Shown in pieces: positions 3,129-47,618 of a DNA stretch of 64,000 bases. The stretch lies in assembly GCA_001029715.1 (NCBI GenBank), contig CP011212.1:398936-462935 (forward strand), written 5' to 3'. Every line of letters starts with the position of its first letter. Position 1 is the stretch's first letter. This DNA comes from a candidate division TM6 bacterium GW2011_GWF2_28_16 (lineage in GTDB: Bacteria; Patescibacteriota; Microgenomatia; UBA1400; PJMF01). The notes under the pieces are model-generated. The model was not told the origin of the DNA, searched no databases, and saw only the letters and a list, made by a program, of their open reading frames with translations. Position numbers and translations under genes: made by a program.

Positions 3129-3256
3129 TCAGCAAATTATAGCAGTCTTGCTAACTTTTCTTCAAAATTGATGCTTGCTAAAATACCAGATCATATTTAA
3201 AATCTTTCAACATGTCGTTAATTACAAATTACTCCCATTTTTTCTTGGTCATTTTG

Positions 3257-3340
3257 CGCAAGAACGTTGCGGGGTAATCTTGTTGCATTAAAACAGATAA
3301 AAAACAAGAACAAGCCCCGCCTTAAGAAGCGGGTTTTTTT
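3257..3340 (+). promoter_or_regulatory. Attenuator-like leader with three mutually exclusive hairpins ending in an intrinsic terminator
   Basis: Hairpin CGCAA(3257-3261)/TTGCG(3267-3271). A 12-bp helix is formed by GCGGGG(3269-3274)+CTTGTT(3279-3284) with AACAAG(3309-3314)+CCCCGC(3315-3320). The terminator is CCCGC(3316-3320)/GCGGG(3329-3333) followed by T7 (3334-3340). Neighbouring helices share bases, so they cannot coexist. Confidence 0.4.
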
Positions 3341-3476
3341 GTATTTTTGATCTTTAACATTAACTAAGGGCTACTTTAGTCTTCAATTATTTGAAAGTTA
3401 AGGTAACCCTTTGTGGCTAGAGCAAATCAGCGCTCTAGTTTCGAAGGGAAAATTTTTCATGGTGGAGGAGAAAACA

Positions 3477-3590
3477 ATGGCAATAGGCAAGGGTAAGCAA
3501 AAAAAGTCTTCCGAACATTTGCCGAGATGCCCCCTTTGTGGGGGAAAACACAGGGCAAAATATTGTCCAAGAAAGCAAAAACCCTCTTAA
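3477..3590 (+). CDS. Small basic protein (37 aa) with a CCHC zinc-knuckle-like motif
   Basis: ATG 3477 is preceded by GGAGGAG (3464-3470) with a 6-nt spacer. Translation is MAIGKGKQKKSSEHLPRCPLCGGKHRAKYCPRKQKPS (C-x2-C-x3-H-x4-C), with TAA at 3588-3590. It is followed by a perfect 11-bp hairpin at 3596-3623. It falls below the ORF-track length cutoff. Confidence 0.45.
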   Translation: MAIGKGKQKKSSEHLPRCPLCGGKHRAKYCPRKQKPS

Positions 3591-3642
3591 CCAAAGCCTC
3601 CGGTCCAGTAATGGACCGGAGGCAACAACATTTATTTTGACC

Positions 3643-3692
3643 AGGATCCTTAATTTTTAAATATTTGAAATTTAAGAATCCTCGTTTTTTTT
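3643..3692 (+). terminator. Rho-independent terminator candidate
   Basis: Imperfect long stem AGGATCCTTAA../..TTAAGAATCCT (3643-3682) followed by CG and T8 (3685-3692). Confidence 0.55.
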
Positions 3693-3754
3693 CTAGAGCT
3701 AGCGCAAAGCGCGCCAATCTTTGGAAAGAGGAAATCTTTTTGGGAGGGTCGTCG

Positions 3755-3811
3755 ATGAAGAAAGATAAGAAGAAGAAAAAAGGACATCGTAATAAAAAAG
3801 GCAACAAGTAG
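3755..3811 (+). CDS. Tiny lysine-rich ORF (18 aa), MKKDKKKKKGHRNKKGNK
   Basis: ATG 3755 is preceded by GGGAGGG (3742-3748) with a 6-nt spacer, and TAG is at 3809-3811. Its very short length and low complexity mean coding status is uncertain. Confidence 0.3.
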   Translation: MKKDKKKKKGHRNKKGNK

Positions 3812-3838
3812 TCGCCTTTAGGTGTCCAACCCTCAATC

Positions 3839-3870
3839 TTTGGTGGCGCCATTTATTTGGCGCCACCAAA
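3839..3870. repeat. Perfect 13-bp inverted repeat (stem-loop or operator), TTTGGTGGCGCCA-TTTATT-TGGCGCCACCAAA
   Basis: Read directly: 3839-3851 is the exact reverse complement of 3858-3870. There is no U-tract on either strand. It lies about 47 nt upstream of the aspS -10 candidate. Confidence 0.85.
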
Positions 3871-3917: not shown

Positions 3918-3923
3918 TATAAT
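3918..3923 (+). promoter_or_regulatory. Candidate -10 box (TATAAT) for aspS, implying a leaderless or near-leaderless mRNA
   Basis: A consensus TATAAT sits 11 nt before the aspS ATG (3935). No Shine-Dalgarno is present between them, and the -35 is weak. Confidence 0.35.
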
Positions 3924-3934
3924 AACTCTTACCT

Positions 3935-5356
3935 ATGCAAAGAACTCTCGTTATTGATTCCTTAGAAAAAGTTGGTCAAACTGTTCGCCTCTGTGGTTGG
4001 GTGGATAGCAAGCGTGATCACGGTAAAGTTACTTTCATTGATTTAAGAGATCGTACTGGCAAGATCCAGGCCGTTGGTATTGGTGGCAAATTGAGTGAGT
4101 TAAGCAATGAGTCAGTTGTTGAAATCACTGGACCAATCAATACTCGTGGCGAAAAAATGGTCAACCCAAATTTGCCAACTGGCTCCATAGAGATTTTTGT
4201 TGAAGATTATAAGGTTCTCAATAAGGCAGCTGAGCTACCAATTCTTGTGGAAGGTGATGGTCGTGATGTTAATGAAGAGATGCGTCTTAAGTATCGCTAT
4301 TTAGATTTGCGTCGTGAGAGAATGCAAAAAATTGTGCGCTTGCGCTCTAAATTTTATCAAGCTCTTCGTGAGCAATTAGAGAAAAAAGATTTTACCGAAG
4401 TTGAAACTCCAATGTTGACCAAATCAACTAAGGAAGGAGCTCGTGATTTCATCGTGCCTTCTCGTTTTAATCCTGGTAAATTTTATGCTCTTCCGCAAAG
4501 TCCTCAACAATATAAACAATTATTGATGACGGCTGGTGTTGAGAATTATTATCAATTTGCTCGTTGTATTCGCGATGAAGATTTACGTGCTGATCGCGGT
4601 TTTGAATTTACTCAGCTTGATCTCGAAATGAGTTTTGTGACTCAACAAGAAGTAATGGATAATGTCGAAGAAATTGTCAAAAATGCTGTCAAAAAAGTTG
4701 GCGCCAAACTCAAAGATGAAGTTTTTCCAGTTATTCCTTACAAAGAAGCAATTGAAAAATATGGTGCCGATAAATTTGATTTGCGCAGTGAGGAAGAAAA
4801 AAAAGAAAATGTTTTAGCTTTTGCTTGGGTGGTTAGTTTCCCATTCTTTAAAAAAGTTGATAAAAAAGACATTGCTGAAGTGCGCGATGGTAAGAGTGGT
4901 TGGACTTTCACTCATAATCCTTTTTCGAGTCCAATTCCAGAATCTATGGAAGATCATAAGAATGCTGAAAATATCGAAAATATTATTACCGCTCAGTATG
5001 ACTTGGTCTGTAATGGTTACGAAGCAGGTGGCGGCAGTATTAGAGCTCATGATCCAGAAGTTCTTAAAAAGACCTTTGAAATCATGGGTTATAGTGATCA
5101 GGAGATTGAAGCCAGTGTGGGCCATATGTTGGAAGCTTTTAAATTGGGCACTCCTCCCCATGGTGGAATTGCTTTAGGACTAGATCGCTTAGTAATGCTT
5201 TTGGCAGGAGAGAATTCACTCAAAGAAACCATTGCTTTCCCAATGAGTTCTTCTGGCAAGACCTCTATCATGGACGCACCAAGCGAAGTTTCTGATGAAC
5301 AACTCAAAGAGTTAGGTATTCTAATCGCTCCTAATTTAGCTACAATGAAAAAGTGA
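3935..5356 (+). CDS. aspS: Aspartyl-tRNA synthetase, bacterial-type catalytic core lacking the GAD insertion domain
   Basis: OB-fold N-terminus, LRLKYRYLDLRR, QSPQQYKQLLM, motif 2 CIRDEDLRADRGFEFTQLDLEMSF and motif 3 GGIALGLDRLVMLL. It is only 473 aa: YGADKFDLR is followed after about 10 aa by WVVSFPFF, where E. coli AspRS has a roughly 130-aa insertion. Confidence 0.92.
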   Translation: MQRTLVIDSLEKVGQTVRLCGWVDSKRDHGKVTFIDLRDRTGKIQAVGIGGKLSELSNESVVEITGPINTRGEKMVNPNLPTGSIEIFVEDYKVLNKAAELPILVEGDGRDVNEEMRLKYRYLDLRRERMQKIVRLRSKFYQALREQLEKKDFTEVETPMLTKSTKEGARDFIVPSRFNPGKFYALPQSPQQYKQLLMTAGVENYYQFARCIRDEDLRADRGFEFTQLDLEMSFVTQQEVMDNVEEIVKNAVKKVGAKLKDEVFPVIPYKEAIEKYGADKFDLRSEEEKKENVLAFAWVVSFPFFKKVDKKDIAEVRDGKSGWTFTHNPFSSPIPESMEDHKNAENIENIITAQYDLVCNGYEAGGGSIRAHDPEVLKKTFEIMGYSDQEIEASVGHMLEAFKLGTPPHGGIALGLDRLVMLLAGENSLKETIAFPMSSSGKTSIMDAPSEVSDEQLKELGILIAPNLATMKK

Positions 5357-20032: not shown

Positions 20033-20104
20033 TGACCCCACGCAGAATCGAACTGCGGTTACAAGGATGAGAACCTTGTGTCCTAACCACTAGACGATGG
20101 GGCC
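20033..20104 (-). tRNA. tRNA-Glu (anticodon CUC)
   Basis: The reverse complement GGCCCCATCGTCTAGTGGTTAGGACACAAGGTTCTCATCCTTGTAACCGCAGTTCGATTCTGCGTGGGGTCA folds as a cloverleaf. It has a 7-bp acceptor stem, anticodon loop TTCTCAT and T-loop TTCGATT. CCA is not encoded. Confidence 0.9.
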
Positions 20105-46574: not shown

Positions 46575-46764
46575 ATTACCGCTTGCGCTGATTCTCAATT
46601 CTTGCTACTTTAATTATTGCTGTGGAACATAGTGAAAATCTATGACTGTGCCGCAACGGTAATTCCTTTTTAAGGATTAGTCCGATCTTCAGCAAAAGAG
46701 AAATCTTGACGAGCATCGAGGCTGTATATTTTACTGTCGATGCTCCCTAAAGGGGAGCTTTTTT
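46575..46764 (+). ncRNA. Candidate structured RNA (riboswitch-like leader or sRNA) ending in an intrinsic terminator
   Basis: A long-range helix pairs ATTACCG-c-TTGCG (46575-46587) with CGCAACGGTAAT (46652-46663). Internal hairpin CATAG/CTATG, and hairpin TCCTT/AAGGA. A 9-bp helix GAGCATCGA(46711-46719)/TCGATGCTC(46737-46745) shares 4 nt with the terminator GCTCCC(46742-46747)/GGGAGC(46753-46758)+T6. Confidence 0.4.
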
Positions 46765-47547: not shown

Positions 47548-47618
47548 ATCCCGGGCCAGGATTTGAACCTAGAATAATTGATTCAGAGTCAATTGTGATG
47601 CCATTTCACTACCCGGGA
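47548..47618 (-). tRNA. tRNA-Gln (anticodon CUG)
   Basis: The reverse complement TCCCGGGTAGTGAAATGGCATCACAATTGACTCTGAATCAATTATTCTAGGTTCAAATCCTGGCCCGGGAT folds as a cloverleaf. It has a U1-A72 pair (typical of bacterial tRNA-Gln), anticodon loop CTCTGAA and T-loop TTCAAAT. Confidence 0.88.

What the first reader, a model, noticed from the sequence alone, without database searches (positions are those of the whole stretch)
3477..3623. 37-aa highly basic ORF with a C-x2-C-x3-H-x4-C zinc-knuckle-like motif
The peptide MAIGKGKQKKSSEHLPRCPLCGGKHRAKYCPRKQKPS has an ideal SD and spacing. It has 11 K/R in 37 residues and a Cys2-His-Cys spacing close to the C-x2-C-x4-H-x4-C knuckle of nucleic-acid-binding proteins. 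A perfect 11-bp GC-rich hairpin follows immediately. Small Zn-binding basic proteins are often ribosome- or RNA-associated (bL32, bL33 and bL36 use CxxC pairs), but this sequence does not match those I remember. One caveat: the CPLCGG codons themselves form a CCCCC/GGGGG hairpin. The signal could therefore be RNA structure rather than coding.
Basis: partly seen in the sequence, partly recalled or inferred. Interest (0 to 1): 0.5.

Follow-up and report, generated by a model that had tools for sequence, protein, structure and literature searches.

The report
Unannotated zinc-knuckle micro-protein gene in Pacebacteria
The 37-codon reading frame is a real but never-annotated gene for a tiny probable zinc-binding peptide. 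It sits in a small array of similar mini-genes that share a structured RNA leader, is confined to a narrow group of Candidate Phyla Radiation (CPR) bacteria, is dispensable there, and its function is untested.

Summary
ATG 3477 to TAA 3590 encodes a 37-aa peptide with C18-x2-C21-G-x2-H25-x4-C30-P31, a GGAGGAG Shine-Dalgarno site 6 nt upstream, and a perfect 12-bp hairpin (3596-3623).

The window comes from Candidatus Pacebacteria GW2011_GWF2_38_9. Four non-redundant related genomes carry a small ORF with the same C-x2-C-G-x2-H-x4-C-P core in the same slot upstream of aspS.
- Codons differ while amino acids are kept. For L009 vs L011 the core gives dN 0.05 and dS 0.80.
- The CCCCC/GGGGG hairpin is not conserved.
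- So the constraint is on the protein, not on that RNA hairpin.

No annotated homologue exists in billions of predicted proteins, and no Pfam, NCBIfam, PHROGs or Rfam family matches. The only resemblance, below threshold, is the CCHC knuckle of eIF3g, which has identical spacing.

The gene is one unit of a cassette array. Each unit has two covariation-supported 5' hairpins, a strong SD, a tiny basic or zinc-binding ORF, and a GC hairpin. The ORF is swapped, decayed or absent in close relatives.

Best reading: a stand-alone zinc-knuckle micro-protein that probably binds nucleic acid. Coding is shown. Zinc binding and the target are inferred.

The parts
3366..3411 (+). Leader hairpin H1 of the zinc-knuckle cassette. 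Arms are AAGGGCTACTTTAG and TTAAGGTAACCCTT; the loop contains TTGAAA.
   Evidence: Alignment of 10 copies: 18 pairs, 95.4% of cells paired, 9 pairs with compensatory changes. The covariation score was reached by 0 of 500 shuffles, and slid-partner controls were much lower. G-U pairs point to RNA on the + strand.
3407..3448 (+). Leader hairpin H2. Lower stem is CCCTTTG/CGAAGGG and upper stem is GGCTAGAGC/GCTCTAGTT. It shares 5 nt (CCCTT) with the 3' arm of H1.
   Evidence: Nine copies: 16 pairs, 92.4% of cells paired, 9 pairs with compensatory changes, 0 of 500 shuffles. No Rfam family matches.
3464..3470 (+). Shine-Dalgarno site GGAGGAG, 6 nt before the ATG.
   Evidence: Read directly from the sequence. 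GGAGG is rare in the window. All four non-redundant orthologues have GGAGG 5-9 nt before their start.
3477..3590 (+). 37-aa zinc-knuckle micro-protein gene, stop codon included.
   Evidence: An ORF with the same core occupies the same slot in L005, L007, L009/L010 and L011. Synonymous substitutions and a low core dN/dS support coding.
3528..3569 (+). Codons for the knuckle core C18-P-L-C21-G-G-K-H25-R-A-K-Y-C30-P31.
   Evidence: C, C, G, H, C and P are the only invariant columns besides Met1. The AlphaFold2 single-sequence model has mean pLDDT 88 for residues 21-30. The eIF3g knuckle CRLCGNDHMTMNCP has identical spacing, in a match below threshold.
3596..3623 (+). GC-rich 12-bp hairpin H3, 5 nt after the stop codon. 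Putative 3' stabiliser or terminator of the mini-gene.
   Evidence: L005 keeps it with a compensatory change (GGTCC/GGACC becomes GGCCC/GGGCC). L007 and L011 have unrelated GC hairpins at the same place. No U-run follows it on the + strand.
3643..3732 (+). Leader of the second cassette. H1' is 3643-3682 and is followed by T8. H2' is about 3690-3727, with an outer CCTC/GAGG pairing at 3680-3732.
   Evidence: nhmmer with the leader profile finds exactly two copies in the 64-kb window, E 4.6e-23 and 1.3e-19.
3755..3811 (+). Second cassette ORF, 18 aa, MKKDKKKKKGHRNKKGNK, behind SD GGGAGGG (3742-3748).
   Evidence: Identical peptide in L005. L006 has GTG-MKKEKKKKRGHKKKH and L157 has MAKRRKKSRNERHGKKKGGKAS in the equivalent cassette.
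3839..3870 (+). GC hairpin H3' closing the second cassette (TTGGTGGCGCC...GGCGCCACCAA), followed by AATCTTT.
   Evidence: Both stem arms are invariant in the window, L005 and L006.
3170..3344 (+). Module A, directly upstream. It has a promoter-like TTGCTA-N17-TAAAAT, a 21-codon ORF with almost no leader (3212-3277), and a terminator (3316-3340). It may be the transcription start and attenuator for the array, or an independent small RNA or micro-protein gene.
   Evidence: Present in all syntenic loci; inverted in L013 and L134, which lack cassettes. Promoter and terminator scan. Rfam matches to Phe/Trp/Leu leaders are below threshold. Consensus fold.

Best explanation
Bases 3477-3590 are an independent, translated micro-gene. 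Its 37-aa product folds around one Zn2+ held by Cys18, Cys21, His25 and Cys30, forming a single CCHC knuckle with spacing C-x2-C-G-x2-H-x4-C-P. The knuckle, helped in this genome by Lys/Arg-rich tails, most likely binds nucleic acid (RNA, or a ribonucleoprotein such as the ribosome).

The gene is one unit of a short array between a peptidase gene and aspS. Each unit has two long 5' RNA hairpins (H1, H2), an unusually strong Shine-Dalgarno site, a tiny basic and often zinc-binding ORF, and a GC-rich 3' hairpin. The hairpins probably stabilise or co-regulate these very short mRNAs.

What is shown:
- The ORF is conserved as protein.
- The four putative ligand residues plus Gly and Pro are what is constrained.
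- H1 and H2 are RNA structures on the coding strand.
- The cassette leader is kept while its ORF varies.

What is inferred: zinc binding, nucleic-acid binding, and the role of the hairpins.
For: Source and synteny: AspRS is 100% identical to Candidatus Pacebacteria GW2011_GWF2_38_9. Relatives with 77-99% AspRS identity keep RmuC - peptidase S9 - gap - aspS.

Orthologous small ORFs with C-x2-C-G-x2-H-x4-C-P lie in the same slot, behind the same leader, in L005, L007, L009/L010 and L011. Invariant columns are M1, C18, C21, G22, H25, C30 and P31.

Protein-level selection:
- L009 vs L011 have 19 of 19 core residues identical with 6 synonymous codon differences, including Ser TCA vs AGC.
- The window vs L005 have 9 identical core residues, 7 of them with different codons.
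- The Nei-Gojobori estimate for the L009/L011 core is dN 0.05 and dS 0.80. The N-terminal half has dN about equal to dS.

The internal CCCCC/GGGGG hairpin is not conserved.

Translation signals: GGAGG lies 5-9 nt before the start in all orthologues, and GGAGG is rare in the genome.

The AlphaFold2 model made without an alignment has mean pLDDT 88 over residues 21-30.

The eIF3g zinc knuckle has the same spacing and flanking Gly and Pro. It is the top match, though below threshold, in Pfam and the PDB for four of five members.

Leader hairpins: H2 has 9 of 16 and H1 has 9 of 18 pairs with compensatory changes, 92-95% of cells paired, 0 of 500 shuffles reaching the score, and G-U pairs specific to the + strand.

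Other cassettes behind the same leader encode C4 zinc ribbons (L011, L135) or poly-basic peptides (window, L005, L006, L157).
Against: - No experiment or expression data exist, so translation, zinc binding and any target are all inferred.
- The family is narrow and dispensable. In L006 the ORF is decayed (both CxxC cysteines replaced, with an earlier stop). In L135 it is replaced by zinc-ribbon ORFs. It is absent in L157, L137, L013 and L134.
- The basic character is not conserved, and the N-terminal half evolves nearly neutrally.
- The counts behind dN/dS are small: about 12 synonymous and 45 non-synonymous sites.
- No significant sequence or fold match to any characterised nucleic-acid-binding knuckle.
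- The 3' hairpin lacks a U-run, so calling it a terminator is uncertain.
Confidence: 0.5

Rival explanations
1. The signal is an RNA structure, not a protein. The CPLCGG codons and the 3' hairpin belong to a non-coding element and the reading frame is incidental.
For: CCCCC/GGGGG can pair in the window. L005 has a 5-bp pairing GTCCA/TGGAC nearby. The surrounding region is rich in real RNA hairpins.
Against: - The pairing in L005 is in a different register, and L007, L009 and L011 have none.
- The frame is open in all four non-redundant orthologues.
- Substitutions are concentrated at synonymous sites in the core.
- No Rfam match.
Confidence: 0.03
2. The ORF is a cis-acting upstream ORF or leader peptide. 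Its act of translation regulates the downstream mini-gene or aspS, and the peptide product has no role.
For: It lies upstream of aspS in every relative. It is flanked by hairpins that could switch. H1 and H2 share 5 nt in the window. Module A upstream resembles amino-acid attenuators.
Against: - A cis-acting uORF would not need four metal-ligand residues conserved at fixed spacing through synonymous change.
- aspS has its own conserved TATAAT 11 nt before its ATG and no SD.
- L134, L013 and L137 lack the cassettes yet keep aspS.
Confidence: 0.07
3. The cassette peptides, including this one, are lineage-specific ribosome-associated micro-proteins. They would be analogous to bL36, bL37, bS22, Thx or eL41, filling rRNA pockets in the reduced ribosomes of CPR bacteria.
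For: - Size, charge and zinc-binding pairs resemble small ribosomal proteins, and the SD sites are strong.
- There is precedent for a 24-aa ribosomal protein, bL37, confined to one phylum and found only by cryo-EM (PMC5876184).
- The eIF3g knuckle is part of a ribosome-bound factor (PMC8354637).
- Weak PDB profile matches include uS14 type Z and bL32.
Against: - The repertoire differs between genomes whose AspRS is 85-89% identical, and some relatives have none. That is unlike structural ribosome components.
- No profile match reaches significance.
Confidence: 0.15
4. The array is a hot spot of exchangeable accessory mini-genes of mobile or phage origin. Candidate roles are toxin-like, anti-defence or host-interaction peptides, and the zinc knuckle peptide acts on a partner protein rather than on nucleic acid.
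For: - Presence is patchy and ORFs are swapped behind a constant leader.
- In L011 an IS1595 transposase and a Replic_Relax gene are inserted upstream of the array, between the peptidase gene and module A.
- Phage contigs carry 41-42-aa ORFs with a hydrophobic N-terminus plus CTRCGG[DS]HxLS[KR]CPWP, resembling L007's CIHCGGDHKSSKCPDRP.
Against: - The phage ORFs were retrieved by the motif itself, so the similarity is partly circular, and no PHROGs family links them.
- The leader occurs only at this one locus in each genome examined.
- No recombinase or repeat boundaries define a mobile unit.
Confidence: 0.15
5. The peptide is a zinc buffer or metallochaperone rather than a nucleic-acid binder.
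For: Several cassette ORFs are dominated by metal-ligand residues: CCHC here and C4 ribbons in L011 and L135.
Against: Other cassettes behind the same leader have no Cys at all, for example the 18-aa poly-Lys ORF and L157's 22-aa peptide. One structural site per peptide is a poor store.
Confidence: 0.05

Closest known systems
CCHC zinc knuckle of eukaryotic initiation factor eIF3g/Tif35 (within Pfam PF12353)
   Same: Identical spacing and flanking residues, C-x2-C-G-x2-H-x4-C-P (yeast CRLCGNDHMTMNCP). It is the best, though sub-threshold, match for four of five family members in Pfam and for the family profile in the PDB. It belongs to the translation apparatus (PMC8354637).
   Different: - Scores are 11.5-16 bits against a cut-off of 24.4.
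- The match is a 15-residue motif inside a protein of roughly 270 residues that also has an eIF3i-binding region and an RRM; here the knuckle stands alone.
- eIF3g is eukaryotic, not bacterial.
- The function of the eIF3g knuckle is itself undefined.
Retroviral-type zinc knuckle zf-CCHC (Pfam PF00098; HIV nucleocapsid, Lin28, CNBP)
   Same: Cys-Cys-His-Cys ligand order, Gly after the second Cys, Pro after the last Cys, and basic flanks in the window's copy. These knuckles bind single-stranded nucleic acid (established knowledge).
   Different: The canonical spacing is C-x2-C-x4-H-x4-C; here the second spacer is x3 in all five members. PF00098 gave no hit even at E up to 10.
One-domain zinc-finger micro-proteins of Haloferax volcanii (CPxCG type)
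   Same: Stand-alone prokaryotic proteins under 60 aa built around one zinc site (PMC6562870, listed). The window's copy even reads CPLCG.
   Different: By my recollection (the paper was listed, not read) those proteins use two or more C(P)xCG pairs, giving a C4 site. Here the site is CCHC with a single CxxC, and the Pro is not conserved in relatives. There is no sequence similarity: the HVO_2753-like chain scored E 5.2.
Very small lineage-specific basic ribosomal proteins (bL36, bL37, bS22)
   Same: Length of 18-47 aa and extreme basicity in some cassette products. They were missed by annotation. bL37 (24 aa) is confined to Actinobacteria and was found only by cryo-EM (PMC5876184).
   Different: No profile similarity. 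The gene content of the array varies among close relatives, which is unusual for ribosomal proteins.
E. coli YnfU, a prophage-encoded small protein with a pair of CPxC zinc knuckles
   Same: A bacterial micro-protein discovered outside standard annotation whose only recognisable feature is a zinc knuckle (bioRxiv 10.1101/511675).
   Different: It uses two CPxC pairs (C4), its sequence is unrelated, and its context is a prophage.

Membership tests
zf-CCHC retroviral-type zinc knuckle (PF00098) | Spacing C-x2-C-x4-H-x4-C | tested here: not met
   All five members have C-x2-C-x3-H-x4-C.
zf-CCHC retroviral-type zinc knuckle (PF00098) | Profile match at or above Pfam's gathering score | tested here: not met
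   PF00098 is not listed for any member even at E up to 10.
zf-CCHC retroviral-type zinc knuckle (PF00098) | Binds one Zn2+ through Cys, Cys, His and Cys | not testable with these tools
   Only indirect evidence: the four residues are invariant and the knuckle region is confidently modelled.
eIF3g zinc-binding motif (PF12353) | C-x2-C-G-x2-H-x4-C-P motif | tested here: met
   Aligned residue for residue with yeast eIF3g 109-123, CRLCGNDHMTMNCP.
eIF3g zinc-binding motif (PF12353) | Whole-family profile score at or above 24.4 bits, with the eIF3i-binding region and RRM present | tested here: not met
   Scores are 11.5-16.1 bits and only profile positions 98-128 of 130 are matched. The peptides are 31-47 aa.
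Zinc-binding bacterial ribosomal proteins (bL32, bL33, bL36, uS14 type Z) | Significant profile match to the family | tested here: not met
   There is no Pfam or NCBIfam hit to them. PDB profile hits to uS14 type Z and bL32 have E 0.03-8, which is not significant.
Zinc-binding bacterial ribosomal proteins (bL32, bL33, bL36, uS14 type Z) | Universal or near-universal presence within a lineage | tested here: not met
   Decayed in L006 and absent in L157, L135, L137, L013 and L134.
Haloarchaeal CPxCG zinc-finger micro-proteins | At least two C(P)xCG-like pairs forming a C4 site (definition from my recollection of PMC6562870, which was listed but not read) | tested here: not met
   There is one CxxC plus H-x4-C. 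Pro after the first Cys is present only in the window and L005.
Intrinsic (rho-independent) terminator, for hairpin 3596-3623 | GC-rich stem-loop | tested here: met
   12-bp stem with 9 G-C pairs and a 4-nt loop.
Intrinsic (rho-independent) terminator, for hairpin 3596-3623 | U-run immediately 3' of the stem on the transcribed strand | tested here: not met
   On the + strand the stem is followed by AACAACATTTATTTTG. The scan reports it only for the - strand.
Any Rfam family, for leader hairpins H1 and H2 | Covariance-model match at the gathering score | tested here: not met
   No hit over 3340-3476 or over the equivalent regions of five loci, even at E up to 1-10. The only nearby matches are weak S15-leader hits on the opposite strand, E 0.6-0.9.
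Translation-coupled attenuator (Trp/Phe/Leu leader type), for module A 3170-3344 | Leader ORF + alternative 1:2, 2:3 and 3:4 pairings + terminator | tested here: inconclusive
   - The leader ORF and terminator are conserved.
- A helix between ORF codons 7-9 and GGGGUA has some covariation.
- The proposed antiterminator GCGGGG/CCCCGC shows an uncompensated mismatch in L011, L135 and L137.
- Rfam scores of 24-36 bits are below the cut-offs of 41-55.

The most novel reading that the evidence does not exclude
The 800-nt gap upstream of aspS is a previously undescribed kind of locus. It would be an array of exchangeable micro-gene cassettes, each with a conserved two-hairpin RNA leader (H1-H2, no Rfam family) driving a different tiny basic or zinc-binding peptide: CCHC knuckle, C4 ribbon or poly-Lys. 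The leader would be a new cis-regulatory RNA, for example an autoregulatory binding site for the peptides themselves or a metal- or translation-state sensor. The whole array would be gated by the upstream leaderless-peptide attenuator (module A).
Probability: 0.2. Interest if true: 0.7.

Novelty: new variant of a known kind. Interest (0 to 1): 0.45.

Why it matters
CPR (Patescibacteria) genomes are tiny, and a large share of their genes have no known function. Genes below about 50 codons are systematically missed. None of the five family members was called as a gene in the assemblies examined, and none has a relative among billions of predicted proteins.

A stand-alone bacterial CCHC knuckle, with the spacing otherwise seen in eIF3g, adds a new minimal zinc-finger family. 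It could be tested cheaply with a synthetic peptide.

The shared, covariation-supported leader in front of several different micro-ORFs is a compact model for how very short mRNAs are stabilised or co-regulated. It could also point to unrecognised ribosome- or RNA-associated peptides in organisms with reduced ribosomes.

The impact is limited by the narrow, genus-level distribution and by the evident dispensability.

Tried and rejected
1. Searching 5.8 billion predicted proteins found nothing, either with the 43-aa form or with a 5-sequence profile.
2. phmmer against 1.84 billion representatives gave three hits. All are long repetitive proteins without any CCHC motif.
3. An exact-sequence look-up found the ORF was never called as a gene.
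4. The genome-contig scan with the 59-aa extended frame gave only chance PRCPLCGG matches in high-GC genomes, one with an in-frame stop.
6. The viral scan found motif-bearing small ORFs, but homology cannot be separated from selection by the pattern.
7. Pfam, NCBIfam, PHROGs, PDB sequence searches and tblastn against phage records gave nothing significant.
9. The 131-codon ORF on the minus strand (3457-3852) is rejected because it is interrupted in L005 and L006.
10. Rfam found nothing for the T-box or any other known leader upstream of aspS.
11. A sigma-70 promoter for the cassette using the conserved TTGAAA in the H1 loop is rejected, because no -10-like hexamer follows at 16-18 nt and a start there would fall inside H2.
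12. A possible similarity of the poly-basic cassette peptides to bL37 or BrfA is not supported: E 1.9 or no hit.
Full report
**1. The observation**

- ORF: ATG 3477 to TAA 3588-3590, encoding MAIGKGKQKKSSEHLPRCPLCGGKHRAKYCPRKQKPS (8 Lys, 3 Arg).
- Motif: C18-x2-C21-x3-H25-x4-C30.
- SD: GGAGGAG at 3464-3470, 6 nt upstream of the ATG.
- Hairpin: a perfect 12-bp GC-rich stem at 3596-3623, starting 5 nt after the stop.
- The CCCCC/GGGGG self-complementarity in the CPLCGG codons is also present.

Two longer in-frame starts exist, ATG 3459 and TTG 3411. The L005 orthologue starts at a GTG 6 nt after AGGAGG with no upstream alternative, which favours 3477.

The composite pattern of SD, start and knuckle occurs once in the window and never in 100 shuffles. 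GGAGG is rare in this 34% GC window (39 sites on both strands). Only this ORF and an 18-codon neighbour are small basic ORFs behind one.

**2. Source and relatives**

The adjacent AspRS is 100% identical to that of Candidatus Pacebacteria bacterium GW2011_GWF2_38_9, a CPR bacterium. I fetched contigs encoding AspRS homologues of 77-99% identity. Gene order is kept: RmuC, peptidase S9 (opposite strand), a 0.3-0.9 kb gap, then aspS.

**3. It is a protein-coding gene**

A small ORF with the same core lies in the same slot, behind the same leader, in four non-redundant relatives:

| Locus | Peptide |
|---|---|
| L005 | MCKNKKSSSQKNAKSPRCPACGQHHSPSDCPVLKAKKGGVKKNADSS |
| L007 | MKNLILSLVIWVCESVCIHCGGDHKSSKCPDRPR |
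| L009 = L010 | MRKFLHFIYEMTVCRWCGENHPSDKCPDRPK |
| L011 | MKKLKNFFTTVWHKTVCRWCGENHPSDKCPDRPQ |

The only invariant columns are Met1, Cys, Cys, Gly, His, Cys and Pro.

The nucleotide changes are those expected for a protein.
- L009 and L011 are identical at 19 of 19 core residues but differ in 6 codons, including Ser TCA vs AGC.
- The window and L005 share 9 core residues, 7 of them through different codons.
- The Nei-Gojobori estimate for the L009/L011 core is dN 0.05 against dS 0.80.
- The N-terminal half has dN about equal to dS.
- The counts are small, but the direction is the same in every pair.

L005 has only a register-shifted 5-bp pairing, and L007, L009 and L011 have none. A 131-codon ORF on the opposite strand is broken in L005 and L006 and is spurious.

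**4. No known family**

- Word-indexed searches of 5.8 billion predicted proteins found nothing, with a single sequence or a profile.
- Exhaustive phmmer over 1.84 billion representatives found only three repetitive proteins without the motif.
- The ORF was never called as a gene.
- Pfam, NCBIfam and PHROGs give nothing above threshold.
- The recurrent sub-threshold match is the zinc knuckle of eIF3g (PF12353, E 0.014-0.37; PDB 6zu9_r, E 0.02). It aligns as CRLCGNDHMTMNCP and has exactly the same spacing and the same Gly and Pro.
- The classical zf-CCHC family (x4 spacer) is not hit, and its spacing is not met.
- A DNA-pattern scan of metagenomes and viral contigs returned other motif-bearing small ORFs. 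One is a 41-42-aa phage family, MWIVTMMRLMWDIWTVPQCTRCGG[SD]HxLS[KR]CPWP. These were selected by the motif itself, so homology is unproven.

**5. Context: a cassette array**

Aligning the gap among the window, L005 and L006 shows three modules.

*Module A (3170-3344).*
- It has a conserved -35/-10 pair, an ATG about 8 nt after the -10, a 21-25-codon ORF and a terminator.
- It is present in every syntenic locus and inverted in L013 and L134.

*The cassettes.* Two paralogous cassettes follow module A. A profile of their 5' regions finds exactly two copies in the 64-kb window (3342-3478 and 3621-3757). It finds one or two copies in L005, L006, L007, L009/L010, L011 and L135/L136, and none in L013, L134 or L137/L138. 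L157 has one by eye.

*The leader.* Each leader folds into two long hairpins.

| Hairpin | Window coordinates | Pairs | Cells paired | Pairs with compensatory change | Shuffles reaching the covariation score |
|---|---|---|---|---|---|
| H1 | 3366-3411 | 18 | 95.4% | 9 | 0 of 500 |
| H2 | 3407-3448 | 16 | 92.4% | 9 | 0 of 500 |

- Slid-partner controls were far lower for both hairpins.
- Several conserved G-U pairs make sense only as RNA of the + strand.
- One caution: I cut the H1 segments at the stems I had seen, so that alignment leans towards the structure.
- Rfam has no matching family.

*The ORFs behind the leader vary.*
- CCHC knuckle: window, L005, L007, L009, L011.
- C4 zinc ribbons: L011 MARAWCRKCKRVTVFKNGQCQRCCRGK; L135 MAKKTRKHCKRCKRVTVHIHGQCQRCVRPK and MKCQNCGRKVPDDCNICPYCKHKPSFVLVIRRS.
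- Poly-basic peptides: window and L005 MKKDKKKKKGHRNKKGNK; L006 MKKEKKKKRGHKKKH; L157 MAKRRKKSRNERHGKKKGGKAS.
- In L006 the knuckle ORF has decayed. Both CxxC cysteine codons are changed (TGC to TCC, TGT to TAT) and an earlier stop leaves a 24-aa basic ORF.

*What follows each ORF.* Each ORF is followed by a GC hairpin. The one after the knuckle ORF keeps pairing through a compensatory change in L005 but lacks a U-run.

*aspS.* aspS has its own conserved TATAAT 11 nt before its ATG and no SD, so it does not depend on the array.

**6. How it most likely works**

Shown:
- The frame encodes a protein whose constrained part is a 14-residue CCHC unit.
- The mRNA carries two conserved 5' hairpins and a 3' hairpin.
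- The unit is accessory.

Inferred:
- Cys18, Cys21, His25 and Cys30 bind one Zn2+ to form a knuckle.
- By analogy with CCHC knuckles in general, and helped here by Lys/Arg-rich tails, the peptide binds RNA or a ribonucleoprotein.
- The hairpins stabilise or co-regulate these very short, strongly translated mRNAs. 5'-terminal stem-loops protecting against 5'-end-dependent decay is established knowledge, but the transcription start is unknown here.
- Cassettes occur only where module A lies upstream in the same orientation (window, L005, L006, L007, L011, L135; in L157 only a truncated remnant of it remains) and not where it is inverted (L013, L134). L137 has a same-orientation module A and no cassette. 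Read-through from module A is therefore possible, but its antiterminator pairing is not supported by covariation.

My confidence is about 0.9 that the frame is coding, about 0.7 that it binds zinc, and about 0.4 that it binds nucleic acid. That gives about 0.5 for the statement as a whole.

**7. Rivals**

- A pure RNA element is contradicted.
- A cis-acting uORF is unlikely, given ligand conservation and the independence of aspS.
- Ribosome-associated micro-proteins are plausible by precedent (bL37, PMC5876184), but hard to square with variable content.
- Mobile or phage-derived accessory peptides fit the patchiness, the IS insertion upstream of the array in L011 and the phage look-alikes.
- A zinc buffer is unlikely, because several cassettes lack Cys.

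**8. Novelty and verdict**

This is a real, unannotated micro-protein family: a stand-alone bacterial CCHC knuckle with eIF3g-type spacing. It sits in a cassette array with a new structured leader.

It is a new variant of a known kind (small zinc-finger proteins), narrow in distribution and dispensable, with no functional data. Interest is moderate at 0.45. The more novel reading concerns the array and its leader rather than this ORF alone.

Noticed in passing
window 3170-3344 (+): Module A is the most conserved element of the gap.
- It has promoter-like TTGCTA (3175-3180) and TAAAAT (3198-3203), and an ATG at 3212 about 8 nt after the -10, so almost no leader.
- The ORF is 21 codons, MSLITNYSHFFLVILRKNVAG, and contains an almost invariant TTTTGCGCAAG.
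- A terminator lies at 3316-3340.
- It is present in every syntenic locus except L157, where it is truncated, and inverted in L013 and L134.
- Rfam matches to Phe/Trp/Leu leaders are below threshold.
- It could be a small RNA, a micro-protein gene or an attenuator.
   Followed up: partly
window 3755-3811 (+), hairpin 3839-3870: An 18-codon poly-lysine ORF, MKKDKKKKKGHRNKKGNK, lies behind SD GGGAGGG. The peptide is identical in L005, and L006 and L157 carry related variants. A hairpin with invariant stem arms follows it. It has a weak, non-significant resemblance (E 1.9) to the basic N-terminus of the B. subtilis ribosome-rescue factor BrfA/YqkK.
   Followed up: partly
window 3918-3937 (+): aspS has a conserved TATAAT 11 nt before its ATG and no Shine-Dalgarno site. 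It is probably transcribed as a leaderless or near-leaderless mRNA. Few long ORFs in the window have a GGAGG site.
   Followed up: no
window 46597-46756 (+): An AdoCbl (cobalamin) riboswitch scores above Rfam's gathering score (55.6 bits). tRNA genes lie at 20033-20104 (-) and 47548-47618 (-).
   Followed up: no
L011 1992-3923; L011 4627-4710; L135 4380-4481 and 4712-4804: In L011 the region between the peptidase gene and module A carries an IS1595-family transposase gene, a Replic_Relax gene and a further 465-aa ORF. Cassettes in L011 and L135 encode 27-33-aa C4 zinc-ribbon peptides behind the same leader.
   Followed up: partly
L015, L021, L029, L049, L067, L088, L096, L105, L107, L108, L111, L115, L121, L131, L132 (metagenome contigs): An abundant family of 41-66-aa ORFs from low-GC metagenome contigs, ...MFGS...YYCMSCGTKHKEASCPKCGSKMKRVG, with a C4 ribbon that happens to contain the searched motif. 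It is unrelated to the finding and apparently unannotated.
   Followed up: no
L140 8331-8459, L141, L145, L152 (IMG/VR contigs): A family of 41-42-aa phage-contig ORFs with a hydrophobic N-terminus plus CTRCGG[SD]HxLS[KR]CPWP. In L140 it lies among small early genes near an integrase. It may be a relative or a convergent analogue of the L007-type peptide.
   Followed up: partly
window 3457-3852 (-): A 131-codon ATG ORF on the opposite strand spans both mini-genes. It is interrupted in L005 and L006 and is spurious, but could mislead gene callers.
   Followed up: yes
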